Source: an uncultured bacterium
GTDB lineage: Bacteria > Bacillota_I > Bacilli_A > RF39 > UBA660
Length of the DNA stretch: 64,000 nucleotides
Assembly (NCBI GenBank): GCA_949293285.1
Contig: CASFCU010000017.1
Location: forward strand, 2,432 to 66,431
Direction: 5' to 3'
Below are positions 5,085-60,665 of this stretch, piece by piece. The position numbers and the translations under genes were made by a program. The notes under the pieces are model-generated. The model ran no database searches and was not told where the DNA came from. It saw only the letters and a program-made list of their open reading frames with translations. Position 1 is the first letter of the stretch. Each line of letters opens with the position of its first letter.

Positions 5085-6290
5085 TTATCTAGAATTCCAA
5101 GAATTATAAGTACCTGTAGGGAAATAAATCAAACCACGTGGTCCTTTATAACCATTCTTTAATAACTGTGTCCCATACGCAATAAAACTATTCAAATCAT
5201 AACAATTTGGATCATCAAAATTGTTTAATCGACACGGAAAAATTTCCAAATGCAAATGCACTCCAAAGGAATAACCAGTATCACCCATATATCCTAAGTA
5301 TTGATCACTAGTAACATAATCACCGATACTTATCCCAGGTGCATAAGAACTCAAATGGGCATAAAGAGAAGTATACCAAGTATCATTAGTAGCAACATAA
5401 TGCTCCAGTGCAATAACAAGAGCACCATAACGATCAATATATTTAGCTACAACTTTACCATCTGCAACAGGATAAATTCTCTCATTCTCTCGGTTATAAC
5501 TTCCTACATCAACAGCTCTATGCGTATAACTACTACTATAATAAGCCTCCTGAGTAATATACCCAGTTCTAGTAGGTCTTCTAAAAACAGAAACACTTCC
5601 AGCAACTGCACAATCTACTCCTATAACATCATTACTTTCACAACCCAAATCTTTATAACTCTTAACCAATTTTTCATAAGTTGCAATCTGCTCGGAAGTA
5701 GTTACTCCAAAATTATTAAGACTTTCTTTCTTTTCACCTAATTGTTGAACTTTATTAGATAATTCACTTTCCTTTTTATTAATCTCTATTTTTCTTTTTT
5801 CAATTTCTTTTTCTCTATCCTCATTATCTTTAATAATTTGTTCCATTTCATCAATCGTTCGATTATTATAATCAATAAGTTCCTTTACAACTGCTGTTCT
5901 ATAAATTAAATCAGAAGTAGAATCTGCCTTAAACACATATTCTAAATATACATTTTCTCCACTAGATAACTGCATATACTCGATTATCTGTTTTGATTGC
6001 ATTAATTTATCTTTAATTTTACCATTATAATCTTCAATCTCACGATTAAGTTCTTTTACCTCTTCAATAAGTGCAACCATCTCACTTTGTAAATTAGCAA
6101 TTTGTTTATTAGCGGCCGTAATCTCAGATTGTGTTAAATTTAAAGCATCTTGATTTTCTTGTGCTTGACGCTTATAATCAGCTAATTTCTGCTCATATTC
6201 ACCTAAAGTAATAGCCATTCCTTCGATTGGGGTATAAATTTGAACTACTATCACTAAAAGTACTAAAAAAGAAACAATCTTTCTCATCAT
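5085..6290 (-). CDS. Coiled-coil M23 family peptidoglycan endopeptidase (FtsEX-associated, EnvC/PcsB-like)
   Basis: 401 aa: signal/TM, a long coiled coil (residues ~30-200, rich in E/K/Q heptads), and a C-terminal M23 domain with HLHLEIF (HxH); overlaps the ftsX stop by 4 nt. Confidence 0.85.
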   Translation of the reverse strand: MMRKIVSFLVLLVIVVQIYTPIEGMAITLGEYEQKLADYKRQAQENQDALNLTQSEITAANKQIANLQSEMVALIEEVKELNREIEDYNGKIKDKLMQSKQIIEYMQLSSGENVYLEYVFKADSTSDLIYRTAVVKELIDYNNRTIDEMEQIIKDNEDREKEIEKRKIEINKKESELSNKVQQLGEKKESLNNFGVTTSEQIATYEKLVKSYKDLGCESNDVIGVDCAVAGSVSVFRRPTRTGYITQEAYYSSSYTHRAVDVGSYNRENERIYPVADGKVVAKYIDRYGALVIALEHYVATNDTWYTSLYAHLSSYAPGISIGDYVTSDQYLGYMGDTGYSFGVHLHLEIFPCRLNNFDDPNCYDLNSFIAYGTQLLKNGYKGPRGLIYFPTGTYNSWNSR

Positions 6291-7192
6291 ATCTTTAAAT
6301 ACTTCCTTACCGCTCTTCCACTACCAATCATACCGACAATTACCCCAATAACGATCACTACTAATGAAACAAAATATACAAAAGGTTGTGGGCTAAGCAA
6401 TTGAATAAAAGAAGAAAACAAATGTCCATCATCCAGAGTATTATAAAATGCAGTATAACCATATATAGTAACTATCACAGGAAGAATAGATCCAAGAAGT
6501 CCAATAATAAACCCTTCAATGATAAATGGATTTTTAATAGTCCAGTTACTAGCACCAACTACACGCATAATCGATATCTCTCTTCTTCTTGAAAAAATAG
6601 TCAATTTAATAGTATTAACAATTAAAAATACTGTAACAATAATCAATATAATAACAACAACAAATGCAACCTTTTCTACTAAATCGAAAGTAGAAACCAT
6701 TTGTTCAACCATTCCCTCACCATAATTTACAACCTGAACTACCGGAAGATTTTCAATCTCTGTTGCAGTTTCATTAATCCTATTAATATCCTCTACCTTA
6801 ATCATATAACTATAATGAAAAATTTCTTCCTCATTATCGATTAAAGACCCGACAGAATTCCAAAATTCATCCTCTTCCAAAAGCATTTCTTTTCTTTCTT
6901 CAGGATTTTTTACCTCCCAATCAGGAAGAACATTCTCCATAGAAGAAAGTGTTGCTTCAAAATCTGAAATTTCTTCACTAGTAACACCTAAGTTCAAAAA
7001 AACAACCATTGTCACATCACTTTCAATCTCTTTAGAAAAATTCTTTACATTAAATGACATAACTAGTGCAATAGCAACAATCAAAAGTGTAATACTAATA
7101 CATGAAATAGAAGCTATAGACAAAGAAAAATTTCTATAAACACTCTTAAAAGCATCACGTATTCCACACTTAATCATTCTAAATAGCTTCAT
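6287..7192 (-). CDS. ftsX: Cell division ABC transporter permease FtsX
   Basis: FtsX-family topology and motifs; the true start is MKLFRMIKCG (ATG 7192), preceded by an AGGAAGGGAAG RBS. The ORF-track extension MRKGSTI is unlikely. Confidence 0.85.
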   Translation of the reverse strand: MKLFRMIKCGIRDAFKSVYRNFSLSIASISCISITLLIVAIALVMSFNVKNFSKEIESDVTMVVFLNLGVTSEEISDFEATLSSMENVLPDWEVKNPEERKEMLLEEDEFWNSVGSLIDNEEEIFHYSYMIKVEDINRINETATEIENLPVVQVVNYGEGMVEQMVSTFDLVEKVAFVVVIILIIVTVFLIVNTIKLTIFSRRREISIMRVVGASNWTIKNPFIIEGFIIGLLGSILPVIVTIYGYTAFYNTLDDGHLFSSFIQLLSPQPFVYFVSLVVIVIGVIVGMIGSGRAVRKYLKI

Positions 7193-7889
7193 TATCGTAC
7201 TTCCCTTCCTCATAATCTTCCATAACTCTACCAGCTTTAAGAGCCACTACTCTCTTTTTAAACTTATTGACAATATCTCTATCATGTGTTGCCATAATAA
7301 CAGTAGTCCCCATAGTTTTATTAATATCATCCAAAACATTCACGATTTCTTCACTCATCAAAGGATCTAAATTACCAGTCGGCTCATCACAAATCAAAAG
7401 CTTTGGATTATTTACAATTGCTCTTGCAATAGCAACACGTTGCTGTTCTCCACCAGAAAGCTCATCGGGATAATTTCTAGCTTTTCCCTTAAGACCAACT
7501 AATTCTAAAGCCTTTAAAGTTTTTATTCTAATATCACTACTCTTTTCTCCAATTGCTTCAAGTGCAAAAGCAACATTTTCATAAACTGTAAGTTTTGGTA
7601 ATAATCTATAATCTTGAAACACAATTCCTAATCTTCTTCTAAGCTTATAAACCTTACTATTTCTTAGCTTAGCAACATTCTTACCACCAATAATAATTTC
7701 TCCCATCGTTGGTCTTTCTTCTCTATAAAGCATCTTTATAAGCGTAGACTTACCACTACCAGAACCTCCAATAATAAAAACAAATTCCCCTTTCTTTATT
7801 TTTAAATCTAAATCATAAATAGCTGTAACACCATTTTTATACTTTTTATGAACACCCTTTAAAGTAATTAATTCCACTAACTTTTTCAC
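7179..7889 (-). CDS. ftsE: Cell division ATP-binding protein FtsE
   Basis: Walker A GGSGSGKST, ABC signature LSGGEQQRV, Walker B LLICDEPTGNLD; 236 aa immediately upstream of ftsX. Confidence 0.9.
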   Translation of the reverse strand: MKKLVELITLKGVHKKYKNGVTAIYDLDLKIKKGEFVFIIGGSGSGKSTLIKMLYREERPTMGEIIIGGKNVAKLRNSKVYKLRRRLGIVFQDYRLLPKLTVYENVAFALEAIGEKSSDIRIKTLKALELVGLKGKARNYPDELSGGEQQRVAIARAIVNNPKLLICDEPTGNLDPLMSEEIVNVLDDINKTMGTTVIMATHDRDIVNKFKKRVVALKAGRVMEDYEEGKYDNEAI

Positions 7890-7934: not shown

Positions 7935-8810
7935 CTAACTATTATGTCCTCCCATCACTTCATAAGAATCCGTAACAATAAAAAAGGCATTATGATCAAT
8001 CATCTTAATTTTCTTAGTAACTTTATAATATAAATCATTTGGTACCGCTACCATCAAAATCGATCTATCATCATCATTTTTACCACTTTTTACATCAAAA
8101 ACAGTAGCACCACTTCTCAAATCTTTTAAAATATAATCCTTAATATCTTTTTCTCTATCTGTAATAATATAAAATGACTTATGAGAAGAAATACCCAACA
8201 TAACTTTATCAATAACATGACTACTTACATAAAGTAAAATAATAGCACAAAGTACACTAGTTATTCCGAAACAGTATCCTCCCACCAAAACAATAATAAA
8301 ATTAATAATAAAATTTGATTTACTGATAGATATTCTAAATTTTTCATACAAAATTTGATTAATCAAAGTAATACCACCTTGACTTAAATCTACTTTACAA
8401 GTAAGTCCAGCCACCCATCCGGTGATTGCCCCCGCAAAAATAGAAGCAATAATAATATCGTTAGAACTAACATGTACATAAGAATTAATTCCTTCCGTCA
8501 AATCGACAAATAATGGATAAACAAAAGTAGCAACAAGTGCACTAGATGCTTTTTTTACACCAACAGTAAGATAGCCTAATATTAAAATAGCAATAGAAAA
8601 ATACAGAATAAAAGTAGATGGACTAATAGAGAAAAGCTTCTCAACAATAATAGACAAACCGTTAGTTCCCCCAGCTACTATTTTCAAAGGTCTTAAAAAT
8701 AAATTATAATTAATAGAAGAAACAAACATAGTAACAATAAGAACAGAATACTTATAACCCCATTTTTCTTTCTTCATTTTTTTCCATATTTTTTTTAATT
8801 TATCATTCAC
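7935..8810 (-). CDS. YitT family membrane protein (DUF161 + DUF2179)
   Basis: Paralog of the adjacent gene with the same multi-TM topology plus a C-terminal DUF2179-like region; probable GTG start at 8810 (GAGGTG RBS). The ORF-track start at 8831 lacks an RBS. Confidence 0.7.
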   Translation of the reverse strand: MNDKLKKIWKKMKKEKWGYKYSVLIVTMFVSSINYNLFLRPLKIVAGGTNGLSIIVEKLFSISPSTFILYFSIAILILGYLTVGVKKASSALVATFVYPLFVDLTEGINSYVHVSSNDIIIASIFAGAITGWVAGLTCKVDLSQGGITLINQILYEKFRISISKSNFIINFIIVLVGGYCFGITSVLCAIILLYVSSHVIDKVMLGISSHKSFYIITDREKDIKDYILKDLRSGATVFDVKSGKNDDDRSILMVAVPNDLYYKVTKKIKMIDHNAFFIVTDSYEVMGGHNS

Positions 8811-9675
8811 CGCCAAACACCTCATATGCATCAGTTACAACGAAAAAAGCATCTTTATCAATTTTATGAATTCCTTCTTTTAACTTAAAATATTCACGAG
8901 TAGGAACAACACAAAACAAAACTTTTTGATTTTCTTTTGAAAAACCACCAACTGCATTAAAAATTGTAATTCCATGCCCTAAATTAACTAAGACAAAATT
9001 TCTCACTTCACTTACTCTATCAGTAACAATATAAAACGCCTTAGACTTACTAATTCCAAGAAGTACTTTATCTGTTAATACACTCATAATGTAAAGAACT
9101 ACTACGGCATACATAAACTTGGTAATTCCAAAAATAAAAATACTAATTCCAACAATAAGGCCATCAGATATAAACATACATTTACCTAAACTAATTTTAA
9201 AATATTTATGAAGAATTTGATTAATAATATCTGTTCCTCCAGTCGTAAAACCAGCCTTATAAACCAAGCCTAAACCGAAACCAGAAAGTACTCCACCAAA
9301 AATAGCCGATAAAAAAATATCTGTACTCTCAAAAGAAAAATAAACAGTTAGAATCTCCGTAATCTTCAAAAAAAGCGGTAAAAGAAGAGAACCTAAAACA
9401 GAACCGACAGTTTTCTCTTTTCCAAGAAAAAGCAAACTAACAAACAAAAGGGCAACGGAAACACAAAGTACGAACATGGAAGGATCAATTCCGAACAAAT
9501 AATTAAAAATAATAGATAACCCACTCACACCACCAAATACAAGACTATTAGGTAACAAGAAAAAATTAAATGATATAGAAAACAAGGAAATTCCTAATAT
9601 AAATTCTAATATTCTAATAATATTATATTTTTCAAGAAATCTTTTTATCTTCTTCCTACGAGTTTTATCCTTCAT
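8803..9675 (-). CDS. YitT family membrane protein (DUF161 + DUF2179); positional equivalent of B. subtilis yvjA next to prfB
   Basis: GGVSGLSIIFNYLFGIDPSMF motif; 290 aa; overlaps the prfB stop by 11 nt. Confidence 0.75.
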   Translation of the reverse strand: MKDKTRRKKIKRFLEKYNIIRILEFILGISLFSISFNFFLLPNSLVFGGVSGLSIIFNYLFGIDPSMFVLCVSVALLFVSLLFLGKEKTVGSVLGSLLLPLFLKITEILTVYFSFESTDIFLSAIFGGVLSGFGLGLVYKAGFTTGGTDIINQILHKYFKISLGKCMFISDGLIVGISIFIFGITKFMYAVVVLYIMSVLTDKVLLGISKSKAFYIVTDRVSEVRNFVLVNLGHGITIFNAVGGFSKENQKVLFCVVPTREYFKLKEGIHKIDKDAFFVVTDAYEVFGGE

Positions 9676-10772
9676 ACTTATCCTCCTTTAATTTTTTTTC
9701 AATAAAATCATTAATATCACCATCTAACACTTTTGAAACATTACTTGTTTCATAAAGAGTACGATGATCTTTCACCATCGAATAAGGATGCATAACATAA
9801 CTTCTGATTTGAGAACCAAACTCTATATTTTTTTGTTCCCCCTTAATCTTACTTAACTCATCATTTTTTTTCTCAATTTCTAATAACTTCAATTTGCTTT
9901 TTAACATCTTCAAAGCTTGTTCTTTATTCTGAATTTGGCTTCTTTCATTTTGACAAGTAACGACAATTTTTGTAGGCAAATGCGTTATTCTAACGGCTGA
10001 ATCAGTAGTATTTACTCCCTGACCACCACACCCACTAGAACGGTAAACATCAATCTTCAAATCTTTATCATTAATCTCGATATTAGCAATATCCTCACTA
10101 AATTCTGGTGTTACAAGAACAGAAGCAAAAGAAGTATGCCTTTTATTATTGGCATCAAAAGGAGAAAGTCTAACAAGTCTATGAATTCCCTTCTCACACT
10201 TCAAATAACCATAAGCGTAATCCCCTTTAACAAGAATAGACACGCTTTTGATTCCAACTTCATCCCCATCCTGATAATCTAAGAGTACATATTTATAACC
10301 ATTTTTATCACACCATCTAGTATACATTCGATAAAGCATAAAAGCCCAATCACATGCTTCCGTACCACCAGCACCAGAATGCACCTCTAATACACAATTA
10401 TTCTTATCATATTCTCCATTTAAAAGAAGTAAAATCTCTAATTTTTCAAGCCTATCTGTTATATTTTTACATTCTTCCTCAATAAACAGAACAGTATCCA
10501 CATCACTCTCATCCATGGATAACACTACTTTTTTCAAATCATCAATATCAAAAGCTAAATCATCAACATCCTTAATAATAGACTTTAAAGAATTTAACTT
10601 TTCTATAACTTCACTACTTCTCTTAGAATTATCCCAGAAATTAGGAGAAGACATTTCTTTTTCTAAAAAAGAAATTTCCTCTTTTTTTCTATCTATGTCA
10701 AAGTAACCTCCATAAATCATTAATCTTATGATAACTATCATCAATATTTCTTCTTAACTCATAAACTTCCAT
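9665..10772 (-). CDS. prfB: Peptide chain release factor 2, expressed through a programmed +1 ribosomal frameshift at CTT TGA C (10703..10697)
   Basis: Frame 0 reads ATG(10772) MEVYELRRNIDDSYHKINDLWRLL, then in-frame TGA (10700-10698). The +1 frame continues DIDRKKEEISFLEKEMSSPNFWDN...; GGAGG lies 3 nt upstream of CTT; SPF and GGQ motifs are present. The ORF-track N-terminus MMIVIIRLMIYGGYF is a frame artifact. Confidence 0.9.
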
Positions 10773-10827
10773 AGCAAAGACCTCCATTATTCAACAATTA
10801 TAACATAAAAAAAGACTTAAATTAAGC

Positions 10828-10938
10828 CCTTTAATCTAATTTACTTCAATTTTACTATCCAAATGTTGAAACAAATGGTCCTCTATCTTATTCATAATAA
10901 TTTTTTCAATCTTTCTAGCACCATAAACTTCATAATCA
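10828..10938. repeat. 111-bp direct repeat copy 1 (a displaced duplicate of the 3' end of the ClpC-like gene); identical to 14854..14964
   Basis: An exact 111/111 match to 14854-14964; encodes ...DYEVYGARKIEKIIMNKIEDHLFQHLDSKIEVN* on the minus strand but is attached to no gene here. Confidence 0.9.
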
Positions 10939-11043
10939 AATTCTCTCGAGTTTTGTAGCTTGAAAACAAAAAAATAAGCTTTTCATATTTTACATACTAC
11001 AAAAATCGAGTTATATCATATTCCATTATGATTAGTAAATTAT

Positions 11044-11071
11044 AAAAAATAGTTCTAACAAAAGAACTATT
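11044..11071 (-). terminator. Rho-independent terminator after the ABC permease gene
   Basis: AATAGTTCT-aacaaa-AGAACTATT hairpin followed on the minus strand by a T6 run. Confidence 0.55.
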
Positions 11072-11087
11072 TTAGTATCATTAATGA

Positions 11088-13568
11088 TTATATATTGTCG
11101 TTTCTAATAGTTTCAATAATATTTGACTTTTTTAATTTACGAGAAGCAAAATATATTGAAATAAATACAATAGCAAAAACACCAATAATTGACGCAATTA
11201 AATATTTATATGGATATGCAACTACATCATCACTAGAACTCAAGGTAAACATTACAATGAAGATCAGGACATTAGCAAATACTTGCCCTAAAAACAAAGA
11301 GTCAAAACCGAGAACTAATCCTTCATAGAACAACATTCTATTAAATGATTTATTAGATAGACCAACACTCTTTAAAACAGAAAAATCTCTCTTTCTTAAA
11401 TCAATACTAGTATTAATTGTATTAATGACATTAGTAACTGCAATCAATACAATAAATCCCAAAAAAGCATATATACCAGTTTTGATACCGAAAATCATTT
11501 TATAGTATTCTTCATATTCGATTAAAGTATTAGTATAGTTACTAACTTCTATATTATTATTTTCAAGTTCTTTGATTTTATTATCCAGTACTTTATATTT
11601 TTCAGAATCTATTTTAACAAAATAATCAGATGGATAATTAATATAGTTAGAAGTAGATTTCCTATATGCATCAAATTCTTCTTCAGACATAACTATCATT
11701 CCCATTAAACTATTATCATCGATAAAATATAAATTATCAAGGGTATAAATTGGATTATTTAAATCATATTTATATATATAGTGATCTCCATTAGAAGTAA
11801 AATTAGGATTTTCAATTCTTTCTACATCGTAAACATTTATCTCTTTAATTTCATCTTTCCACATCGGTATCTTTTTTTCAATATCACCACTTTCATTTCT
11901 TTCATAATAATTTTTTGGAACAAAAATAACATCATCATCAACATTATATTTTTTCTTTAAATCACTATAATTCTTCTGATCATAAGAAGATATCCATATA
12001 TCATCATAATTTAATGAAAATATTTCCCTACTTTTTATATATTCATCTTCAAAATAATCAACTTCGTAAGGAATATCACCATAACTTAAACGGGTAACTA
12101 AATATTTATCTACTTCTTGATATGATAAAATCTCTTTAACTATTTTTTTGCCTTTAAAAGTATCTTCAACATAAACGCTGATTGGATATTCATCAGGTTT
12201 ATACTTTTCTAATTCACCAAAAGTTATATTGATAAACTCACCAATTACCATAAATAGAATAATACTTATTATTAAAGATATTTTAGCACTACGATATTTC
12301 TTTTTATTTCTTACAATATTATTTTGAGCTAAAACTGCTTCTTCCCCAAAGATATTTAAAAACCTTTTATTTTTCTTGTATTTTTTCTTTTTCAACTCTA
12401 TATCATTATTTAATCTAATAACTTCTAAAGGTGATACACTACTAGATTTAAAAGCTGGTATCAATGCTGATAAGAAAATCATAATAATTGAGAAAAATAA
12501 AGATACAAGGGCATAAGATGGATAAATTACAACTCTAAAATCAGCATTAGGAATATAATTAGTAATTATTTTAGAAGCAATAAAAGCCAAAATAAAACTA
12601 AATATAACACCAAGTGGAATAGCAATTATAGATATGATAAAAGCTTCATATATAACACTTAAAAAGATATTTTTTTTAGATGAGCCAAGGCTTCTAAATA
12701 TACCAAAAATCTTTTTTCTTTCAGATACTGATATTGCAAAGGCATTATAAATTGCAAGAGATGAAAATAAAGCTAAAACTCCTAAAATTATAACGATCCA
12801 AGTTCTTATAGTCTTTACAAATGTATCATTACCAATACCAAAAAGCATTAGATAAGGAGTATTGATATAAACATCTTCATACTTATTATCACTAGATGCT
12901 AAAATTCCTTGAAGATGGGGTAAACCTATTTCTTCAGCAATTTTATATGTTTCTTCATAAGTATTTTTCATATTATTAAAATAAATATAATATTTTCCAT
13001 CATTTTTCACTTCTGATTTAGTATAAAAAATACCAGAATAACTATTATAACTACTATTGTGCATATAATGATCAAACTTAGACTCATTATAAATACCAAC
13101 AACAGTATAGATAACTTCATCCCCACTAAAAGTATCACCAATTTTTACATTTTGCCATTTAGCAAAATCAAACTCAATTATAATTTCATTATTATTAGCA
13201 GGGAGTTTACCATCTGTTAAAACAAAGTTATCAGCATAATCAAAAGAAGCACTTTTAATAAAATATTCTTCATCATTTTTTTCATCATATATATTTTCAA
13301 CATTTTCAATTATAATAAAATGATTTACTTTAGAATTATTTTGAAGTTTTTCTTTTAAAGAGTCATAACCTTTTTCATTGTTAATAATAACATGATGGTC
13401 ACCAATATAATTAATCACACTTTGAAGACGATTATCACGAATACTCGAAAAGATAATTCCAACAACAAAGAGAAGAGATACTGCTAAAAATGTTCCAATG
13501 ATTGTCACTATTGTACGGGTCTTATTTTTCAATAGGTTGCGTAAGGTAAATTTATTTAGAATCTTCAT
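11088..13568 (-). CDS. ABC transporter permease, FtsX/MacB/BceB-like, with two FtsX domains and two large extracellular domains
   Basis: 826 aa: an N-terminal TM, a large extracellular domain and a 4-TM FtsX domain, then a second extracellular domain and second FtsX domain; the C-terminus resembles BceB-type peptide-antibiotic resistance permeases. Confidence 0.8.
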   Translation of the reverse strand: MKILNKFTLRNLLKNKTRTIVTIIGTFLAVSLLFVVGIIFSSIRDNRLQSVINYIGDHHVIINNEKGYDSLKEKLQNNSKVNHFIIIENVENIYDEKNDEEYFIKSASFDYADNFVLTDGKLPANNNEIIIEFDFAKWQNVKIGDTFSGDEVIYTVVGIYNESKFDHYMHNSSYNSYSGIFYTKSEVKNDGKYYIYFNNMKNTYEETYKIAEEIGLPHLQGILASSDNKYEDVYINTPYLMLFGIGNDTFVKTIRTWIVIILGVLALFSSLAIYNAFAISVSERKKIFGIFRSLGSSKKNIFLSVIYEAFIISIIAIPLGVIFSFILAFIASKIITNYIPNADFRVVIYPSYALVSLFFSIIMIFLSALIPAFKSSSVSPLEVIRLNNDIELKKKKYKKNKRFLNIFGEEAVLAQNNIVRNKKKYRSAKISLIISIILFMVIGEFINITFGELEKYKPDEYPISVYVEDTFKGKKIVKEILSYQEVDKYLVTRLSYGDIPYEVDYFEDEYIKSREIFSLNYDDIWISSYDQKNYSDLKKKYNVDDDVIFVPKNYYERNESGDIEKKIPMWKDEIKEINVYDVERIENPNFTSNGDHYIYKYDLNNPIYTLDNLYFIDDNSLMGMIVMSEEEFDAYRKSTSNYINYPSDYFVKIDSEKYKVLDNKIKELENNNIEVSNYTNTLIEYEEYYKMIFGIKTGIYAFLGFIVLIAVTNVINTINTSIDLRKRDFSVLKSVGLSNKSFNRMLFYEGLVLGFDSLFLGQVFANVLIFIVMFTLSSSDDVVAYPYKYLIASIIGVFAIVFISIYFASRKLKKSNIIETIRNDNI

Positions 13569-14352
13569 GATTTACCTCACAAGTATCCGATTTTACTTTT
13601 TCAACAATTTCTGTGGATTGTTGAATAGGTGTAATAACCGCTTGAACAGCTTGTTCATTAGTACTTGTTAATGGTACTTCTTTTTTTATATCACTAACTA
13701 TTTTACCATCACTTACAGTTATTATCCTTTTAGCTTGGCTAGCAATATCCAAATCATGTGTAACCATAATAACAGTTTGTTTATACTTTTCATTTAATAA
13801 TTTTAATAAATCTATTATTTCTTTAGAGTTAGCAGAATCAAGATTTCCAGTTGGTTCATCTGCTAAAACAAGTGCTGGATGATTAATTAAAGCACGGGCA
13901 ATTGCAACACGCTGTTGTGTACCACCAGATAACTGATTAGGTAAGTAATTAAGATATTCTCCTAATTTTAAAATATCTATAAGTTCCTTTTTAAAATTTT
14001 CATCAACTTTTCCTTTGTCTAATAAAACAGGTAATTCAATATTTTCTTCAACATTTAAAATAGGAATTAAATTATAGAATTGATAGACTAATCCAACATC
14101 TTTTCTTCGATATTTAGATAATTCTTTATCTTTTAAATTATAAATATTTTTATCTCTAACAATTATACTTCCACTAGTGGGAGAATCAACTCCTCCAATT
14201 AAATGTAATAAAGTACTTTTACCACTTCCACTTGCTCCAATAATTGAAACAAATTCTCCTTCTTCAATCGAAAAAGACACATTATCAAGTGCTTTAGTTA
14301 AGGACATATCTTTACCATATTCTTTAACTAAATTTTCAACTCTCAATACCAT
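13552..14352 (-). CDS. ABC transporter ATP-binding protein (BceA/MacB-type ATPase partner of the permease)
   Basis: Walker A GASGSGKST, signature LSGGTQQRVAIARAL, Walker B LVLADEPTGNLD; overlaps the permease start; a C-terminal ~40-aa extension. Confidence 0.85.
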   Translation of the reverse strand: MVLRVENLVKEYGKDMSLTKALDNVSFSIEEGEFVSIIGASGSGKSTLLHLIGGVDSPTSGSIIVRDKNIYNLKDKELSKYRRKDVGLVYQFYNLIPILNVEENIELPVLLDKGKVDENFKKELIDILKLGEYLNYLPNQLSGGTQQRVAIARALINHPALVLADEPTGNLDSANSKEIIDLLKLLNEKYKQTVIMVTHDLDIASQAKRIITVSDGKIVSDIKKEVPLTSTNEQAVQAVITPIQQSTEIVEKVKSDTCEVNHEDSK

Positions 14353-14441
14353 AAAATCACCTCTATTATAAGATATTATAACATTTTTTTATCAAAAAAA
14401 ACATTTCACTAGTCATTTGTTTTTATAAATAAAAGGGGCTG

Positions 14442-14554
14442 TTACGAGATTAAATGATTAATTTCAAATGGTTCTTCAATCACTTCTCCTGCAACTGATA
14501 ATATAGCTATTGTGCTTTTCCTTTTGAAATATCAATCCCAACTCCATACTTCAT
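14442..14554 (-). pseudogene. Truncated N-terminal fragment of an IS110-family (DEDD) transposase with an internal frameshift
   Basis: The minus strand reads AGGAAGGAAAAGGAAA RBS, then ATG: MKYGVGIDISKGK, a frameshift, then STIAILSVAGEVIEEPFEINHLIS*. The GIDxSK ... VA.L...GE motif is characteristic of IS110/IS1111 N-termini, and the rest of the gene is absent. Confidence 0.4.
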
Positions 14555-14756
14555 TTTCCTTTTCCTTCCTATTCTTTAAATTACGGTTGGTACCAACTCT
14601 TCTACATATCCTCATTTTAGCTCTTTACACGAGAACTATTTCAATCTCAACTTGCTTAAACGAATATATTATGTGAAGATTGGACAACACTTTTTGTAAC
14701 GAAAACTTTATCTCTAAAAGACGCACGTTATCCGATCACTTCACCATAATAAAAAG

Positions 14757-14800
14757 AAGTGTAATAATTAATCACATTTCTGTAATTAGTTATTACACTT
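14757..14800 (-). terminator. Strong terminator-like hairpin (19-bp near-perfect inverted repeat with a 4-nt loop) downstream of the ClpC-like gene
   Basis: AGTGTAATAATTAATCACA-tttc-TGTAATTAGTTATTACACT (2 mismatches), followed on the minus strand by CTTCTTTTTATTAT. Confidence 0.5.
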
Positions 14801-14853
14801 TTATAGTACCAAAAGAGACTGATACAAAATCAATCACTAATTTTGAGACAGAT

Positions 14854-14964
14854 CCTTTAATCTAATTTACTTCAATTTTACTATCCAAATGTTGAAACAA
14901 ATGGTCCTCTATCTTATTCATAATAATTTTTTCAATCTTTCTAGCACCATAAACTTCATAATCA
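14854..14964. repeat. 111-bp direct repeat copy 2 (the in-situ 3' end of the ClpC-like gene, including its stop codon)
   Basis: An exact match to 10828-10938; spans the last 33 codons, the stop (14862-14864) and 8 nt of 3' UTR. Confidence 0.9.
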
Positions 14965-17132
14965 GATTCTTTGATTACATCATCAATATCAGAAGAATGA
15001 TACTGATAATCAACATGTATTTTATGAATAATTTTATCAAAAGAATTCATCACAATTCTTTTAATATCATCATAACTAAACTTATTAAAAATAATTACTT
15101 TTTCTATTCTATTAATAAATTCCGAAGAAAAATAATTTTTAATACCAGACATTAAAGACTCCTCACTATCTTTTTCAAACCCAATATTCTTTTTATTACA
15201 TCCAGCATTAGAAGTCATAATAATAATATTATTATCAAAACGAAAAACATTTCCAGAAGAATCTTTAATCTTTCCTTCATCAAGAATTTGTAAAAACAAA
15301 TTTAAAACATCAGGATGAGCTTTCTCTACCTCATCAAGCAAAATAACAGAATGCGGTTTATCTTTTATTTCTTCTAGAACACTACTCTTATCTTGATAGC
15401 CAACGTATCCAGGAGGTGAGCCAATAATTTTACTAACAGAATGCTCTTCCTTATACTCACTCATATCCAGTCTAATAATATTTTCTTCTCCAAACATAAA
15501 CTTATTATATTCTTTAGCTAAAAAGGTTTTTCCAACACCAGTTGGACCAACAAAAAGAAAAGAAACTGGCTTTTTATCATATTTAATGCCTAAAGTTATT
15601 TTACGTGTATAATCACAAATTGCAGTTATTGCTTTATCTTGACCAATAATAGTTTTTTTTAAGAAATCTTTTAAATCAGTAATAACCGAAGAAGAAGGAA
15701 CTAACTCATAAACTGGAATATTACTTTTTATTTTAATCACTTCTGCTACCATCTGTTTAGTAACTTCCTTTCTTTTTGTATTCCTCATAATTTTTACATC
15801 CATCTTGTTAATACAACTTTCTAACTTTAACTCTTCTTCTCTTAAATAGACTGCCTCATTAAACTTATTATTTATAATAGCCTCATTCTTTAAATCCTTA
15901 ATTGTTTTAAGTAAATTTTTATAATATATATTTTTTTTAGTCATTTTATCTTCTAAAATAGAAACTTTAGAACAAACTTCATCCAGTACATCAATAGATT
16001 TATCCGGTTGTTTTCTATTATACAAATACTTATTAGATAAAGTAATAATTAATTTCAAAACATCATCATTAATAATAACATTATGATAATCTTCATAAAT
16101 GGATTTTAACCGAGCTAAAATATGATATACTTTTTCTTCATCAGGTTCCGTAATCATAACGGTCTGAAAACGTCTAGATAAAGCTTTATCATCTTCAATA
16201 AATTTTTTATATTCAACAGTAGTAGTAGCTCCTATAATATTTATTTTTCCACGTGCCAAGGATGGTTTCAAAATATTAGAAGCATCAATAGCCCCTTCAG
16301 CACCACCGGCACCAACTAAAGTATGAATTTCATCTATAAAGATAATCACATCATTAGACTCCTCAACCTCTTTTAACATTTTAGTAACCCGCTCTTCAAA
16401 TTCTCCACGATATTTTGTCCCAGAGACTAAACTAGCCATAGATATAGAAATCACTCTCTTATTAAGTAGTTTCGAAGGAACCTCTCCATTCACAATTTTT
16501 CTACTAAGTTCTTCTACAATAGCAGTCTTTCCAACACCAGCATCTCCAATCAATAACGGATTATTTTTAGTTCTTCTACAAAGGATCTCAATAATTCTTA
16601 AAACCTCATCCTCACGATTAATAACAGGATCAAGTTCTCCATCGATAGCTTTTTTATTTAAATTTACACCAAACTCATCAACTAATAATTTATTCTTTAA
16701 TTTCTTACTTTTCCTATTTTGATTAATCTCCTCGTAAAGTAAATCAATATCTACTCCCATACTAAGAAGAACTCTGATAGCAACCCCTTCTCCTTCTTCT
16801 ACAAGAGCTAAAAATAAACTCTCTAAACTAACCTCCTTCAAATTTTTTTCTTTACTAACAATGATAGAATTTTCAATAATTTTTTTTAATAATGGAGTAT
16901 AAATAAACCATTCATTTTCTTTTGAACCAATCCCAACTACATTTATAATTTCTTCTCTAAAAGAAGAATAATCAACACCAAATTCCTTAAGTTTATTGCT
17001 GATAATATTATCTTTTTTCAAAAGTGAAAGAACAAAATGTTCAGTTCCAATATAAGGATGCTTCAAAAGTACCATTTCCTTTTTTGCACCAAGTAATATC
17101 TTTCTTACTTCTTCATTAAACTTTGAGAACAT
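14862..17132 (-). CDS. ATP-dependent Clp protease ATP-binding subunit, ClpC/ClpE-like (two AAA+ modules, N-terminal Clp_N repeats)
   Basis: Walker A motifs GDAGVGKT and GPTGVGKT; Clp_N repeats; the true start MFSKFNEE is at ATG 17132, preceded by AAAGGAGA; ~756 aa. Confidence 0.85.
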   Translation of the reverse strand: MFSKFNEEVRKILLGAKKEMVLLKHPYIGTEHFVLSLLKKDNIISNKLKEFGVDYSSFREEIINVVGIGSKENEWFIYTPLLKKIIENSIIVSKEKNLKEVSLESLFLALVEEGEGVAIRVLLSMGVDIDLLYEEINQNRKSKKLKNKLLVDEFGVNLNKKAIDGELDPVINREDEVLRIIEILCRRTKNNPLLIGDAGVGKTAIVEELSRKIVNGEVPSKLLNKRVISISMASLVSGTKYRGEFEERVTKMLKEVEESNDVIIFIDEIHTLVGAGGAEGAIDASNILKPSLARGKINIIGATTTVEYKKFIEDDKALSRRFQTVMITEPDEEKVYHILARLKSIYEDYHNVIINDDVLKLIITLSNKYLYNRKQPDKSIDVLDEVCSKVSILEDKMTKKNIYYKNLLKTIKDLKNEAIINNKFNEAVYLREEELKLESCINKMDVKIMRNTKRKEVTKQMVAEVIKIKSNIPVYELVPSSSVITDLKDFLKKTIIGQDKAITAICDYTRKITLGIKYDKKPVSFLFVGPTGVGKTFLAKEYNKFMFGEENIIRLDMSEYKEEHSVSKIIGSPPGYVGYQDKSSVLEEIKDKPHSVILLDEVEKAHPDVLNLFLQILDEGKIKDSSGNVFRFDNNIIIMTSNAGCNKKNIGFEKDSEESLMSGIKNYFSSEFINRIEKVIIFNKFSYDDIKRIVMNSFDKIIHKIHVDYQYHSSDIDDVIKESDYEVYGARKIEKIIMNKIEDHLFQHLDSKIEVN

Positions 17133-17356
17133 AAAATCTCCTTTCATAATATATCTTATGTATATATTGAATTCTATTCTCAAAATCTATACAAGAAAAA
17201 ATTTAAAATAAAAATTTTTTAAATATAAACAATCATCTTGTAATTTTAACAAAAATACCAAGATGTTTTTTACATACTTGGTATTTTAGCACTCTTTTCT
17301 CTATTCTTTTATAAGCTAAAATTTCCTATAAAATAAAAAAGAAGTTTCCTTCTTTT

Positions 17357-49285: not shown

Positions 49286-49291
49286 CTTGTT

Positions 49292-49372
49292 GATGCAATA
49301 GATACAGCGGAACCAGGTCAGGATTGGAAAATAGCAGCCTTAACGTATATAGTGTCTATGTGCATCATTTTT
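49292..49372 (+). ncRNA. ffs: Small (4.5S-like) signal recognition particle RNA
   Basis: The domain IV consensus is present: ACAGCGGAACCAGGTCAGGATTGGAAAATAGCAGCC (cf. CCAGGUCAGGUCCGGAAGGAAGCAGCC, including the GGAA tetraloop). The 5' GATGCAATAGATAC pairs with the 3' GTGTCTATGTGCATC, which is followed by a T8 run. Confidence 0.8.
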
Positions 49373-49387
49373 TTTGGAGTTGATTGT

Positions 49388-60429: not shown

Positions 60430-60665
60430 TATATTTTAAATGTAAAGAGGGAAAAGAGAGATAAATAATTCTATCACAAGAGAGTCTTGAAAGGTGGAAG
60501 AAGACATAGAAATTTATCAAAAATGGCTTCCTGAACAGACTAGCATGAATATAGTGATTTATTGCTAGTACGTAAAACGCGTTATGTTTCAAGTGCACAA
60601 ATTTAACATTTGTGAATTAAGGTGGTACCACGGTAAACTCGTCCTTTTTTGGATGGGTTTTTTAT
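60430..60665 (+). promoter_or_regulatory. T-box riboswitch leader (tRNA-sensing antitermination element), probably Met-specific, controlling dut-metG
   Basis: A promoter TTGAAG-17-TATAAT with an extended TG at 60394-60422. Stem I elements AGAGAG...TGAAAGG are present. The T-box sequence AATTAAGGTGGTACCACGG lies at 60615-60633 (cf. AATTAGGGTGGTACCGCGG). A terminator ACTCGTCC-TTTTTT-GGATGGGT + T-run lies at 60637-60663. AUG triplets in candidate specifier loops lie at 60523 and 60545. Confidence 0.75.

What the first reader, a model, noticed from the sequence alone, without database searches (positions are those of the whole stretch)
10828..14964. ~3.9-kb accessory cassette (BceAB-like ABC transporter plus IS remnant) bounded by perfect 111-bp direct repeats that duplicate the 3' end of the ClpC-like gene
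Positions 10828-10938 and 14854-14964 are identical over 111 bp. Copy 2 is the genuine 3' end (33 codons, stop and 8 nt) of the ClpC-like gene. Copy 1 is an orphan fragment sitting in the prfB promoter region. Between them lie a two-gene ABC efflux/resistance module (ATPase 13552-14352, 826-aa double-FtsX permease 11088-13568) with its own terminators, and a ~500-bp leader. That leader carries a frameshifted IS110-type transposase N-terminal fragment (14442-14554), a 12-bp perfect palindrome GTTGGTACCAAC (14586-14597) and a 19-bp inverted repeat (14757-14800). Duplication of a target gene's 3' end at both borders is the classic footprint of a site-specifically integrated element that regenerates the interrupted gene. 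Here it is a degraded element that has kept only a peptide-antibiotic-type ABC transporter. BceAB-type transporters are normally paired with a BceRS two-component system, which is absent.
Basis: seen in the sequence. Interest (0 to 1): 0.6.

Follow-up and report, generated by a model that had tools for sequence, protein, structure and literature searches.

The report
ABC-transporter islet flanked by duplicated clpC end
A 3.9-kb piece of foreign DNA, carrying a two-gene ABC exporter and the dead left end of an IS110 insertion sequence, sits between clpC and prfB of an uncultured gut Bacilli species and is flanked by a duplicated 111-117-bp copy of the clpC 3' end; it is a real but fairly ordinary insertion, and how the duplication arose is unresolved.

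Summary
Positions 10828-10938 and 14854-14964 are identical, and the match runs to 117 nt with one mismatch. The arrangement recurs in four other metagenome samples of the same species, so it is not an assembly artefact. Six fetched loci from related genomes have clpC, a short terminator, the prfB promoter and prfB directly adjacent. The copy-1 side of the window keeps exactly that ancestral context, so the 3.9 kb is an insertion.

- No integrase is present.
- A homologous cassette found elsewhere carries no clpC-like sequence.
- No relative has anything inserted inside the clpC 3' end.
- The permease has eight predicted membrane helices and two extracellular domains. That is a tandem MacB/YtrF-type layout, not BceB, so the missing BceRS is not an anomaly.

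The leader is the left end of an IS110-family element truncated after codon 34, with no right end. Its palindrome and inverted repeat are stems of the element's bridge RNA. The same truncated remnant, 92% identical, lies after clpC in a different species, so it moved horizontally as a block.

The most likely origin of the duplication is RecA-type or illegitimate recombination: Campbell-type single crossover, or homology-facilitated illegitimate recombination. This step is inferred, not shown. Interest is low to moderate.

The parts
9665..10772 (-). prfB (release factor 2), with programmed +1 frameshift at CTT TGA C (10697-10703). This is the conserved downstream neighbour of clpC.
   Evidence: TIGR00020 prfB 498 bits; PCRF and RF-1 domains; start codon, Shine-Dalgarno sequence and frameshift located.
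10797..10832 (-). Native clpC terminator (AAAGGGCTTAATTTAAGTCTTTTTTT, 10807-10832) followed by the prfB extended -10 box TGTTATAAT (10797-10805). This is the ancestral clpC-prfB spacer.
   Evidence: L003, L005, L006, L007 and L008 show the same stop / short hairpin / T-run / TGnTATAAT / prfB layout; L001 has a longer, about 250-nt spacer. Fold; coordinates.
10828..10944 (-). Repeat copy 1 (R'). An orphan copy of the last 35 codons, the stop and 8 nt of clpC. Positions 10828-10938 match copy 2 perfectly. One substitution at 10939 turns Ser TCT into Phe TTT in this unconstrained copy.
   Evidence: The same T variant is present in L026, L028, L041 and L014.
10945..11010 (-). Imperfect palindrome of about 66 nt that abuts the upstream end of R'. 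It marks the right end of the foreign segment. Function unknown.
   Evidence: RNA fold -23.2 kcal/mol, z = -5.2, 0 of 200 shuffles fold as well. No homologue in L029 or L030, nor elsewhere in the window.
11044..11073 (-). Intrinsic-terminator-like hairpin (11-bp A+T-rich stem plus U-run) after the permease gene.
   Evidence: -10.9 kcal/mol, z = -3.1. Conserved in L030. Not detected by the G+C-biased scan.
11088..13568 (-). ABC permease, 826 aa. A tandem fusion of two MacB/FtsX-type halves. Predicted helices: TM1 at 20-38, TM2-4 at 256-370, TM5 at 430-448, TM6-8 at 697-808. Extracellular domains at 39-255 and 449-696.
   Evidence: Pfam FtsX twice, plus a weak MacB_PCD hit; hydropathy; PDB best hits YtrF 9o9x, 5xu1, MacB and LolF.
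13552..14352 (-). ABC ATPase, 266 aa, LolD/MacB-type nucleotide-binding domain. Overlaps the permease gene by 17 nt, so the two form an operon.
   Evidence: Pfam ABC_tran. Best NCBIfam hits are LolD and MacB, both below their cut-offs. Frameshifted in strain L026.
14356..14383 (-). Expression signals of the cassette: Shine-Dalgarno sequence AGAGGTGAT (14356-14364) and extended -10 box TGTTATAAT (14375-14383).
   Evidence: Read from the sequence. Conserved in L030 and L014. These are consensus matches only.
14412..14453 (-). 42-nt block (TTAATCTCGTAACAGCCCCTTTT + ATTTATAAAAACAAATGAC) fused to codon 34 of the transposase remnant. It is not an IS110 right end. The identical junction occurs in another species (L004, L015).
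   Evidence: Alignments. An nhmmer profile of seven right ends gives no hit here.
14445..14554 (-). IS110-family transposase remnant: codons 1-34 carrying a 1-nt deletion, then 3 further codons in the 42-nt block.
   Evidence: Translation. tblastn with the 401-aa full-length relative from L040, which has DEDD_Tnp_IS110 and Transposase_20 domains.
14555..14814 (-). IS110 left non-coding end encoding a bridge-RNA-like structure.
   Evidence: 80-92% identical to the left ends of full-length and deleted copies. Consensus fold: 68 pairs, 5 with compensatory changes. Guides track their own flanks: permutation p = 0.003 on the left and 0.006 on the right.
14815..14853 (-). 39-nt foreign spacer. It contains a second terminator-like hairpin whose T-run is the IS110 insertion point. 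This is the left end of the foreign segment.
   Evidence: No similarity to the clpC-prfB spacers of relatives.
14854..14970 (-). Repeat copy 2 (R): the functional 3' end of clpC (stop codon at 14862-14864) plus 8 nt.
14862..17132 (-). clpC-like double-AAA+ Clp ATPase, 756 aa from the likely start at 17132.
   Evidence: A protein at about 100% identity (P0027) occurs in an independent assembly.

Best explanation
The ancestral locus was clpC, a short terminator, the prfB promoter and prfB. About 3.9 kb of horizontally acquired DNA (window 10945-14853) was inserted in an ancestor of this species. In gene order, the inserted DNA consists of:
- a 39-nt spacer containing a foreign terminator;
- the left end of an IS110-family element, truncated after codon 34 and lacking a right end;
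- a promoter-bearing operon for a tandem MacB/YtrF-type ABC exporter, with its terminator;
- a 66-nt palindrome.

The insertion duplicated 117 bp of the target: the last 35 clpC codons, the stop and 8 nt. clpC therefore stays intact on one side. On the other side an orphan copy precedes the untouched native terminator and prfB promoter. One later C-to-T change hit the orphan copy.

The most likely way to obtain such a long target duplication without a site-specific recombinase is recombination. One route is single-crossover (Campbell-type) integration of a circular molecule carrying that 117-bp homology. The other is one homologous plus one illegitimate crossover (homology-facilitated illegitimate recombination), with the illegitimate joint at the base of the 66-nt hairpin.

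The IS110 piece is a dead passenger that travelled with neighbouring DNA. It did not make the repeats. The transporter most likely exports or confers tolerance to a peptide or other antimicrobial compound; the substrate is unknown.

Shown: the insertion, the duplication, the gene types, the identity of the IS110 remnant and its horizontal spread. Inferred: the recombination route and the transporter's role.
For: Repeat: 111/111 and 116/117 identical.

Reality of the structure:
- L026 is collinear over 13 kb at 99.5% and carries both copies.
- L028 runs from clpC into R'.
- L041 ends exactly at the distal end of R'.
- L027 plus L014 come from a further sample.

Empty site: L001, L003 and L005-L008 have clpC directly followed by prfB, within conserved RDD-DcuC-clpC-prfB-YitT-YitT synteny. 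The copy-1 side of the window reproduces the stop / hairpin / T-run / TGnTATAAT / prfB layout seen in L003 and L005-L008.

Foreign origin:
- Cassette homologues at 83-85% nucleotide identity lie in unrelated contexts. L030 sits beside sortase, SpaA, SSB and DUF3846 genes; L029 sits beside an unrelated IS110.
- Homology to L030 is limited to window 14433-11011.
- G+C is slightly lower than in the flanks.

No integrase: the ABC genes are the only two ORFs of 100 aa or more between the repeats.

IS110 remnant. No right end anywhere in the window. The same truncation junction occurs at 92% identity in L004, a species whose ClpC is only 71% identical.

Age: between-strain differences are spread evenly over flanks and cassette at about 0.3-0.5%. 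All strains share the R' substitution. This fits a single old insertion inherited vertically.

Transporter type.
Against: - No circular form, donor locus or same-species empty site was found, so the recombination route is untested.
- Where a circle carrying 117 bp of clpC would come from is not explained. Excision of an existing island by recombination between R and R' would produce one, but that only accounts for spread, not origin.
- The junctions show no clear microhomology beyond AGAAT.
- The 5-of-6 match beyond the perfect 111 nt could be chance (my estimate, p about 0.02), which leaves the exact size of the duplication uncertain.
- A decayed integrase-type island cannot be strictly excluded.
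- The substrate and role of the transporter rest on family analogy only.
- The ATPase is frameshifted in one strain (L026), so the cassette is dispensable at least there.
Confidence: 0.55

Rival explanations
1. First reader's model. A genomic island integrated by a tyrosine or serine integrase into the 3' end of clpC and carried its own copy of that 3' end (attP). The two repeats are attL and attR, and the integrase and most of the island have since been deleted.
For: Direct repeats that include a gene's 3' end and keep the gene intact are the classic footprint. A close cassette homologue (L030) lies in a region with mobile-element-type genes.
Against: - No integrase or fragment of one lies between the repeats.
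- L030 and L029 share only the ABC module and carry no clpC-like sequence.
- None of the fetched relatives has an insertion inside the clpC 3' end.
- 111-117 bp of perfect identity is long for an attachment-site core. It would also require the element's copy to be identical to this species' own allele.
Confidence: 0.12
2. Long target-site duplication made by a transposase that cuts the target with a widely staggered pair of nicks, as reported for IS1634/IS1549-type IS4-family elements. The transposase has since been lost.
For: The two copies are in direct orientation and immediately flank the foreign DNA. That IS1634-group elements produce target duplications of tens to hundreds of bp is recalled from the literature and was not checked here.
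Against: The ends of the 3.9-kb segment show no terminal inverted repeats: compare the sequences at 14853 and 10945. No DDE transposase gene is present. The only IS fragment is IS110-type, whose recombination centres on a short core sequence (PMC11208160).
Confidence: 0.05
3. An IS110 bridge recombinase inserted the cassette as cargo of an IS110-derived element, with the left end at 14814 and a right end near 10945.
For: An IS110 left end with an apparently complete bridge-RNA fold sits at one end of the segment and reads towards the cassette. A second species has the same remnant next to clpC. A superficially right-end-like string, CGATTTTTGTAG, occurs at about 11000.
Against: - A profile of seven true right ends finds nothing significant in the window, in the L014 head or in the L004 tail.
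- The left end begins 39 nt away from the repeat.
- The window's guide segments match its own left flank poorly (and inspection).
- The donor guide carries a mutation: CTAAAA where the relatives have CCAAAA.
- No IS110 transposase is encoded in the window.
Confidence: 0.04
4. The cassette is ancestral to the genus, and the relatives lost it by recombination between the two repeat copies, which would leave an apparently empty site.
For: Recombination between 111-bp direct repeats would regenerate exactly the arrangement seen in the relatives.
Against: - All six fetched loci from related genomes that cover the clpC-prfB spacer without another insertion lack the cassette.
- The repeats are 116/117 identical, whereas the clpC 3' ends of different species are only 65-82% identical at nucleotide level.
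- The nearest cassette homologues (83-85% nucleotide identity) sit in unrelated contexts.
- The IS remnant is 92% identical to a copy in a species whose ClpC is 71% identical.
Confidence: 0.04
5. Assembly artefact: a strain mixture or repeat collapse created a false duplication.
For: The source is evidently a metagenome-type assembly. Contigs of other samples break at the repeat and at the IS (L014, L041, L027). L027 carries a suspicious 25-nt tandem duplication inside R.
Against: Two independent assemblies (L026 and the window) traverse both copies with unique sequence on all four sides. L028 traverses copy 2 and enters copy 1. The fixed C/T difference between the copies is reproduced in every sample.
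Confidence: 0.02

Closest known systems
Campbell-type (single-crossover) integrants, and products of homology-facilitated illegitimate recombination
   Same: Foreign DNA is flanked by direct repeats that are a duplicated stretch of the recipient's own sequence. The length of about 100 bp is in the range usable by RecA. No dedicated recombinase is needed. The interrupted gene stays intact.
   Different: No circular form or donor was observed. The homology is short. Homology-facilitated illegitimate recombination is usually described with deletions rather than duplications of recipient DNA (PMC3240628 abstract; the rest is from my own knowledge).
Integrase-borne genomic islands or prophages inserted in the 3' end of a gene (tRNA, tmRNA or protein genes), with attL and attR regenerating the gene
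   Same: Direct repeats comprise the gene's 3' end, the gene is kept intact, and accessory cargo lies between them.
   Different: There is no integrase. Homologous cassettes elsewhere carry no attachment-site-like clpC segment. No other element uses this site. The repeat is perfectly identical to the host allele over 111 bp.
MacB / YtrF / LolCE-type (FtsX-fold, 'type VII') ABC transporters, here as a tandem-fused permease comparable to YbbP or ADOP-type duplicated permeases
   Same: Two FtsX domains, each preceded by a membrane helix and an extracellular domain of about 220-250 aa. A separate LolD/MacB-like ATPase is encoded upstream with overlapping genes.
   Different: All curated family scores are far below cut-off: ADOP 58 bits against 622, LolCE 48 against 362. 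No adaptor or membrane-fusion partner gene is present. The substrate is unknown.
BceAB-BceRS peptide-antibiotic sensing and detoxification modules
   Same: An ATPase gene followed by a large permease gene with two FtsX domains, in a Firmicute.
   Different: The topology is 8 predicted helices with two extracellular domains, whereas BceB has 10 helices and a single extracellular domain between TM7 and TM8 (from my own knowledge). BceB does not appear among the PDB sequence hits. No two-component system lies within about 10 kb (precomputed Pfam lists).
IS110-subgroup insertion sequences with a bridge RNA encoded in the left end (IS621 paradigm; Durrant et al. 2024, PMC11208160)
   Same: - DEDD N-terminus MKYGVGIDISKGKST.
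- A left end of about 260 nt with a 5' stem-loop and two internal loops.
- The 5'-side guide is the sense copy of the left flank, and the 3'-side guide is the reverse complement of the right flank.
- The donor loop contains the right-end terminus AGCAAGTT.
- A -35 box in the right end and a -10 box in the left end would join to form a promoter on circularisation.
   Different: The copy in the window is dead: the transposase is cut after codon 34 and frameshifted, there is no right end, and the donor guide is mutated. This family inserts in the T-run just after intrinsic-terminator hairpins rather than in REP elements.

Membership tests
Integrase-mediated island with att sites regenerating a gene's 3' end | Direct repeats at both borders that contain the 3' end of the target gene | tested here: met
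   111/111 identical (116/117 over the extended match), covering the last codons, the stop and 8 nt of clpC.
Integrase-mediated island with att sites regenerating a gene's 3' end | A tyrosine or serine site-specific recombinase gene, or a remnant of one, inside the element next to one att site | tested here: not met
   Only the two ABC genes are ORFs of 100 aa or more between the repeats. Six-frame translation of the leader shows only the IS110 (DEDD) N-terminal fragment.
Integrase-mediated island with att sites regenerating a gene's 3' end | Related elements elsewhere carry the attP-like copy of the target gene's end, or occupy the same site in other genomes | tested here: not met
   L030 and L029 share only window 14433-11011. 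No relative has an insertion within the clpC 3' end. Only two homologous contexts could be examined.
BceAB-type transporter | BceB topology: 10 membrane helices with one large extracellular domain between TM7 and TM8 | tested here: not met
   Hydropathy gives 8 helices with extracellular domains at 39-255 and 449-696. The reference BceB topology is from my own knowledge.
BceAB-type transporter | Genetic linkage to a BceRS-type two-component system | tested here: not met
   No HisKA or Response_reg family appears among the precomputed Pfam hits of genes within about 6-10 kb in L026 and L027. The rest of the genome was not examined.
MacB/FtsX-fold (type VII) ABC transporter, tandem-fused permease | FtsX C-terminal permease domain, present twice | tested here: met
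   PF02687, 101 bits, two stretches.
MacB/FtsX-fold (type VII) ABC transporter, tandem-fused permease | Extracellular (periplasmic-core-like) domain between the first and second helix of each half | tested here: inconclusive
   MacB_PCD scores 24.6 bits against a cut-off of 27, for the first half only. Loops of about 217 and 248 aa lie at the expected places. No structure was predicted.
MacB/FtsX-fold (type VII) ABC transporter, tandem-fused permease | Cognate LolD/MacB-type ATPase encoded adjacently | tested here: met
   Best NCBIfam hits are LolD (233 bits) and the MacB nucleotide-binding domain (210 bits), both below the equivalog cut-offs. The genes overlap by 17 nt.
IS110 family insertion sequence (IS110 subgroup) | DEDD_Tnp_IS110 N-terminal domain plus Transposase_20 C-terminal domain | tested here: not met
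   The window encodes only residues 1-37, with a frameshift. The full-length relative from L040 has both domains. The window copy is therefore a remnant, not an element.
IS110 family insertion sequence (IS110 subgroup) | Left end encoding a bridge RNA with target- and donor-binding loops whose guides match the flanks and the element ends | tested here: met
   Consensus fold of 11 left ends. Guide-to-flank permutation tests give p = 0.003 and 0.006. Guide orientation is as defined in PMC11208160. No Rfam family matched.
IS110 family insertion sequence (IS110 subgroup) | Right end terminating in the family's conserved ...CTATTGAYTTTTRTTAGCAAGTTT | tested here: not met
   An nhmmer profile of seven right ends gives no hit better than E = 2.8 anywhere in the window, and none in 10800-15000.
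Campbell-type integrant / homology-facilitated illegitimate recombination product | Flanking repeats are a duplicated stretch of the recipient's own sequence, and one copy keeps the ancestral downstream context | tested here: met
   The copy-1 side matches the layout of the relatives. The copy-2 side is continuous with the body of clpC.
Campbell-type integrant / homology-facilitated illegitimate recombination product | Existence of the circular or linear donor carrying one copy of the homology, and RecA dependence | not testable with these tools
   This needs reads or PCR across a 10945-R-14853 circle junction, or genetics.

The most novel reading that the evidence does not exclude
Both junctions of the foreign segment sit exactly at the base of a hairpin: the terminator at 14853/14854 and the 66-nt palindrome at 10944/10945. 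The same dead IS110 left end, whose bridge-RNA fold appears intact, accompanies insertions next to clpC in two species. The most novel reading not excluded is that a bridge recombinase supplied in trans, or another structure-directed activity, inserted a non-IS circle at hairpin bases and produced a duplication of about 117 bp. That would be a natural case of cargo mobilisation by an RNA-guided recombinase with an atypical outcome.
Probability: 0.05. Interest if true: 0.7.

Novelty: new member of a known kind. Interest (0 to 1): 0.25.

Why it matters
The finding shows how small-genome (about 1.3 Mb), uncultured gut Bacilli pick up accessory exporters. A self-contained ABC module moved between lineages together with a fragment of an IS. 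It landed in a spacer, clpC-prfB, that is repeatedly hit by mobile DNA in this group: IS110 and IS3-family elements as well as this cassette.

The 111-117-bp flanking repeats make the islet potentially excisable by ordinary recombination. They are also a caution against reading every gene-end duplication as an integrase footprint.

As a by-product, the related loci give a clean natural series of about 90%-identical IS110 copies. Their bridge-RNA guide loops differ and match their own insertion sites, which lie in the T-runs of terminators. This agrees with the published bridge-RNA model and does not extend it.

Tried and rejected
1. Miniature (MITE-like) IS110 derivative whose right end is ATTTATAAAAACAAATGAC. 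Rejected: true right ends end in ...TTAGCAAGTTT, and a right-end profile gives no hit in the window, L014 or L004.
2. Cargo-carrying IS110 with a right end in the 66-nt palindrome. Rejected on the same test.
3. The 97-nt head of L014 as the right end of a full-length IS110. No support. A 24-nt match to the secA-downstream region of L033 looks like A+T-rich chance. It stays unexplained.
4. A recombination breakpoint at R, suggested by the 3.7% divergence of clpC in L028. Rejected: the differences cluster in the first about 420 nt of clpC, far from R.
5. Rfam search of 10700-15000 at permissive thresholds: only two chance-level hits.
6. Leader DNA against the plasmid and phage collections: no match.
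7. Permease protein against plasmids: only homologues at about 30% identity. PADLOC: only generic ABC or AAA hits.
8. Viral-contig scans for the left end, the 66-nt palindrome, the 42-nt block and the permease: nothing.
9. Exact-protein look-ups of the window's own ClpC and permease: not on record. Near-identical proteins had to be found by homology search first.
10. Integron attC-like or Xer/dif-like reading of the 66-nt palindrome. By eye there are no core-site motifs and only an A+T-rich partial resemblance to a XerD arm. Not pursued.

Full report
**1. The observation**

The repeat is real. The repeat finder reports 10828-10944 and 14854-14970 as a two-copy family at 99% identity, spaced 4026 bp apart. 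A base-by-base comparison shows 111 consecutive identical bases (10828-10938 = 14854-14964), one mismatch (10939 A, 14965 G), and five more identical bases. Similarity is lost abruptly on both sides. All other repeats in the 8-kb region are 44 nt or shorter and 67-80% identical. There is no third copy in the window.

All genes of the region lie on the minus strand:
- a ClpA/B/C-type double-AAA+ ATPase (14862-17183 as listed; the probable start is the ATG at 17132 behind AAAGGAG);
- an ABC ATPase (13552-14352);
- an 826-aa permease with two FtsX domains (11088-13568);
- prfB.

prfB really starts at 10772 and contains the canonical CTT TGA C +1 frameshift at 10697-10703. Copy 2 is the last 33 codons, the stop and 8 nt of clpC. 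Copy 1 has no reading frame leading into it.

**2. It is not an assembly artefact**

Homology search with ClpC found near-identical proteins in other samples, and their contigs were fetched.
- L026 (ERZ28614154) is collinear with the window from 20000 to 7000 at 99.5% and contains both repeat copies with the same single mismatch.
- L028 (ERZ28614030) runs from clpC through copy 2, the leader and the cassette into copy 1.
- L041 (ERZ28613769) spans 14676 to 10828 and stops exactly at the distal end of copy 1. A graph assembler is expected to stop there when the sequence after a repeat branches.
- L027 and L014 (ERZ16268175) cover the two halves.

Differences among strains are about 0.3-0.5% and are spread evenly over the flanks and the cassette. 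The C/T difference between the two copies is the same in every sample. This fits one insertion in a common ancestor of the sampled strains, inherited vertically since.

**3. It is an insertion**

A scan of species-representative genomes with ClpC returned 13 loci, 12 of them from uncultured Bacilli or Bacillales; one record is a complete 1.31-Mb chromosome. In L001, L003 and L005-L008, clpC is followed directly by prfB. This lies within a conserved RDD-DcuC-clpC-prfB-YitT-YitT order.

In L003 and L005-L008 the spacer has a common layout: stop codon, short hairpin, T-run, an extended -10 box (TGnTATAAT), Shine-Dalgarno sequence, prfB. L001 has a longer spacer of about 250 nt. The copy-1 side of the window has exactly the common layout: TAG ATTAAAGGGCTTAATTTAAGTCTTTTTTT ATGTTATAAT ... 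GGAGG ... ATG, at 10772-10844.

So the ancestral sequence was clpC body, R, terminator, prfB. What was added is 10945-14853 plus one extra copy of R.

The alternative is that the cassette is ancestral and was lost everywhere else through recombination between the repeats. That reading is unparsimonious:
- the cassette is absent from all six fetched loci that cover the spacer without another insertion;
- the repeats are 116/117 identical, whereas clpC 3' ends of different species are only 65-82% identical at nucleotide level;
- the nearest cassette homologues lie elsewhere (next section).

**4. What was inserted**

(a) *The transporter.* ATPase and permease overlap by 17 nt. They have their own Shine-Dalgarno sequence and extended -10 box (14356-14383), and an A+T-rich hairpin plus U-run after the permease (11044-11073).

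The permease has predicted helices at 20-38, 256-370 (three), 430-448 and 697-808 (three), with loops of about 217 and 248 aa after the first and fifth helix. That amounts to two MacB-type halves fused in tandem. Supporting evidence:
- Pfam gives FtsX twice and a sub-threshold MacB_PCD hit.
- The best solved relatives by sequence are YtrF (9o9x), the pneumococcal 5xu1 permease, MacB and LolF. BceB is not among them.
- The ATPase is LolD/MacB-like.

This is therefore not a BceAB module, and the absence of a BceRS pair is not an anomaly (none lies within about 10 kb). Function is inferred only by analogy with MacB/YtrF-type exporters of Firmicutes: export of, or tolerance to, a peptide or other antimicrobial. 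The ATPase is frameshifted in strain L026, so the module is dispensable at least there.

(b) *Mobility of the cassette.* Permease homologues at 80-81% amino-acid identity lie in unrelated contexts:
- L030 sits in a region with sortase, SpaA, SSB, DUF3846 and HTH_36 genes.
- L029 sits beside an IS110 transposase only 27% identical to the one discussed here.

DNA homology to L030 (85%) covers window 14433-11011 only, that is promoter to terminator. Neither locus carries clpC-like sequence.

(c) *The leader is a dead IS110 left end.* Frame-shifted translation reads MKYGVGIDISKGK/STIAILSVAGEVIEEPFEINH. A metagenome scan with a 28-mer from the leader retrieved full-length relatives (L040 and L035, 401 aa) and deleted ones. 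The L040 protein has DEDD_Tnp_IS110 and Transposase_20 domains. Their left ends are 80-92% identical to window 14814-14454.

In this family the left end starts at TTTGGTACTATAAAAGTG. The right end finishes ...CTATTGAYTTTTRTTAGCAAGTTT. Insertions lie in the T-run just after terminator-like hairpins.

A consensus fold of eleven left ends gives the following (68 pairs, five with compensatory changes):
- a first internal loop, between GGATAACG and GTTATCC, holding two hypervariable segments;
- a second internal loop containing AAGCAAGTT (the right-end terminus) and CCAAAA (the complement of the left-end start).

The 5' variable segment repeats each copy's own left flank. The 3' segment is the reverse complement of its right flank. 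L035 matches 9 of 9 on both sides, and permutation tests give p = 0.003 and 0.006. [quoted passage not shown]

The window copy is dead:
- the transposase is cut after codon 34 and frameshifted;
- there is no right end anywhere in the window (nhmmer profile);
- there is no other IS110 transposase in the window;
- the donor guide is mutated (CTAAAA).

(d) *The remnant moved as a block.* L004 and L015 belong to a different species. Their ClpC is 71% identical to the window's, and their DNA is 92% identical to L002 and L003. They carry the same remnant, with the identical junction (codon 34 | TTAATCTCGTAACAGCCCCTTTT | ATTTATAAAAACAAATGAC), at 92% nucleotide identity. It sits directly in the T-run of their native clpC terminator, and the sequence then diverges from the window.

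The guides in L004 fit that native site well: AAAGTC-TTTTTTT-GTGATATAAT, as seen in L003. The window's guides fit the window's left flank poorly (and inspection). So the truncated remnant, together with the 42 nt to its right, was transferred horizontally. It is a passenger here, not the agent of insertion.

(e) *The two ends of the foreign segment.*
- Left end: a 39-nt spacer (14815-14853) with a second terminator-like hairpin, unrelated to the spacers of relatives.
- Right end: a 66-nt imperfect palindrome (10945-11010; -23.2 kcal/mol, z = -5.2), with no homologue in the fetched loci.

**5. How the duplication arose (inferred)**

Because of the repeat, the insert can be written as a circular permutation of R - spacer - IS remnant - cassette - palindrome, 4026 bp in all. 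That is precisely the product of a single crossover between the chromosome and a circle carrying 117 bp of clpC homology.

It is equally the product of one homologous and one illegitimate crossover of linear DNA. An example would be a fragment R'-terminator-prfB anchored in prfB and joined illegitimately at the foot of the palindrome, or the mirror image of that event.

Neither route needs a dedicated recombinase, which fits the absence of one. The single C-to-T change lies in the unconstrained copy and changes Ser to Phe there. It is shared by all strains, consistent with a 117-bp duplication followed by one mutation. Alternatively, the duplication was 111 bp and the extra 5-of-6 match is microhomology or chance (my estimate, p about 0.02).

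I could not find a circle, a donor, or a same-species empty site, so this step remains inference. I put about 0.55 on a recombination route, about 0.12 on a decayed integrase island, and 0.05 or less on each of a long target-site duplication by a lost transposase, IS110-mediated cargo insertion, ancestral presence, and artefact.

**6. Comparison with the known, and verdict**

- The islet works like a Campbell-type or illegitimately integrated segment. It is not a member of the integrase-island class: the repeats are there, but the recombinase, the attP copy and recurrent use of the site all fail (membership table).
- The transporter belongs to the MacB/FtsX-fold superfamily as a tandem-fused permease, and not to the BceAB family.
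- The leader is a remnant of an IS110-subgroup element with a typical bridge RNA.

Nothing here is categorically new. It is a new instance of known kinds, with one unresolved mechanistic detail. The clpC-prfB spacer is a recurrent landing site in this group: IS3-family in L002, IS110 in L004, and this islet.

Interest 0.25.

Noticed in passing
L031-L040, L016, L004 (left ends); window 14682-14733: IS110 copies about 80-92% identical to one another differ mainly in two short guide segments of the bridge-RNA target loop. Each copy's guides match its own insertion site, which is the T-run just after a terminator hairpin. This is a natural series of retargeted bridge RNAs.
   Followed up: partly
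L004:3653-4058 and L015:1132-1540: A different species (ClpC 71% identical) carries the identical truncated IS110 remnant and 42-nt junction block, 92% identical at nucleotide level, right after its own clpC terminator. The contigs end about 100 nt later, so what follows is unknown.
   Followed up: partly
L014:1-97: In sample ERZ16268175 the cassette contig starts with 97 nt that match neither the window nor any IS110 right end. It joins the window sequence at 14430. This is either a chimeric scaffold or a strain variant.
   Followed up: partly
L027:12180-12230 (corresponds to window ~14935-14960): A 25-nt tandem duplication (TTATGGTGCTAGAAAGATTGAAAAA) inside repeat copy 2 frameshifts clpC, giving a 738-aa product, in one sample. 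It may be real or an assembly error at the repeat.
   Followed up: no
L028:1-420 (window 17206-16785): The first about 420 nt of clpC and its upstream region are about 20% diverged from the window, while the rest of the contig differs by about 0.3%. This looks like a mosaic import from a distant lineage.
   Followed up: no
L002:12320-13705: An IS3-family element (ORFs of 115 and 274 aa) is inserted in the clpC-prfB spacer of a related species. It is flanked by a 17-nt direct duplication, ATATTAAGACTTTAATT, which is longer than the 3-4 bp usual for IS3 (usual size from my own knowledge).
   Followed up: no
L033 (oriented): 279-824: An ORF fuses the first about 50 residues of the IS110 transposase to the C-terminal part of SecA (zinc-binding CPCGSGKKYKNCCG tail). 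This is another truncation or rearrangement product of the same IS family.
   Followed up: no
L016:5733-6580 (and L017-L025): An internally deleted IS110 derivative (60-aa N-terminal and 57-aa C-terminal ORFs, with left and right ends kept) is fixed at one site in another gut Firmicute across many samples. An IS3-type inverted-repeat remnant follows its right end.
   Followed up: no
window 5085-7889: A bona fide division module lies 3 kb from the accessory cassette: FtsE-like ATPase at 7179-7889, FtsX with FtsX_ECD at 6287-7213, and a PcsB/M23 peptidase at 5085-6290. So the genome has both a housekeeping and an accessory FtsX-fold ABC system in the same neighbourhood. Annotation is taken from the Pfam list of the collinear locus L026.
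   Followed up: no
window 7935-9675: Two tandem YitT/DUF2179 paralogues, about 40% identical to each other, lie downstream of prfB. They are conserved in all relatives.
   Followed up: no
window 60436-60649 and 49287-49374: A T-box leader (101.7 bits) and a small SRP RNA (50.6 bits) both score above the Rfam gathering thresholds.
   Followed up: no
L026:6447-7246: The ABC ATPase of the cassette is split into 154-aa and 71-aa ORFs by a 1-nt indel in one strain, while the permease stays intact.
   Followed up: partly
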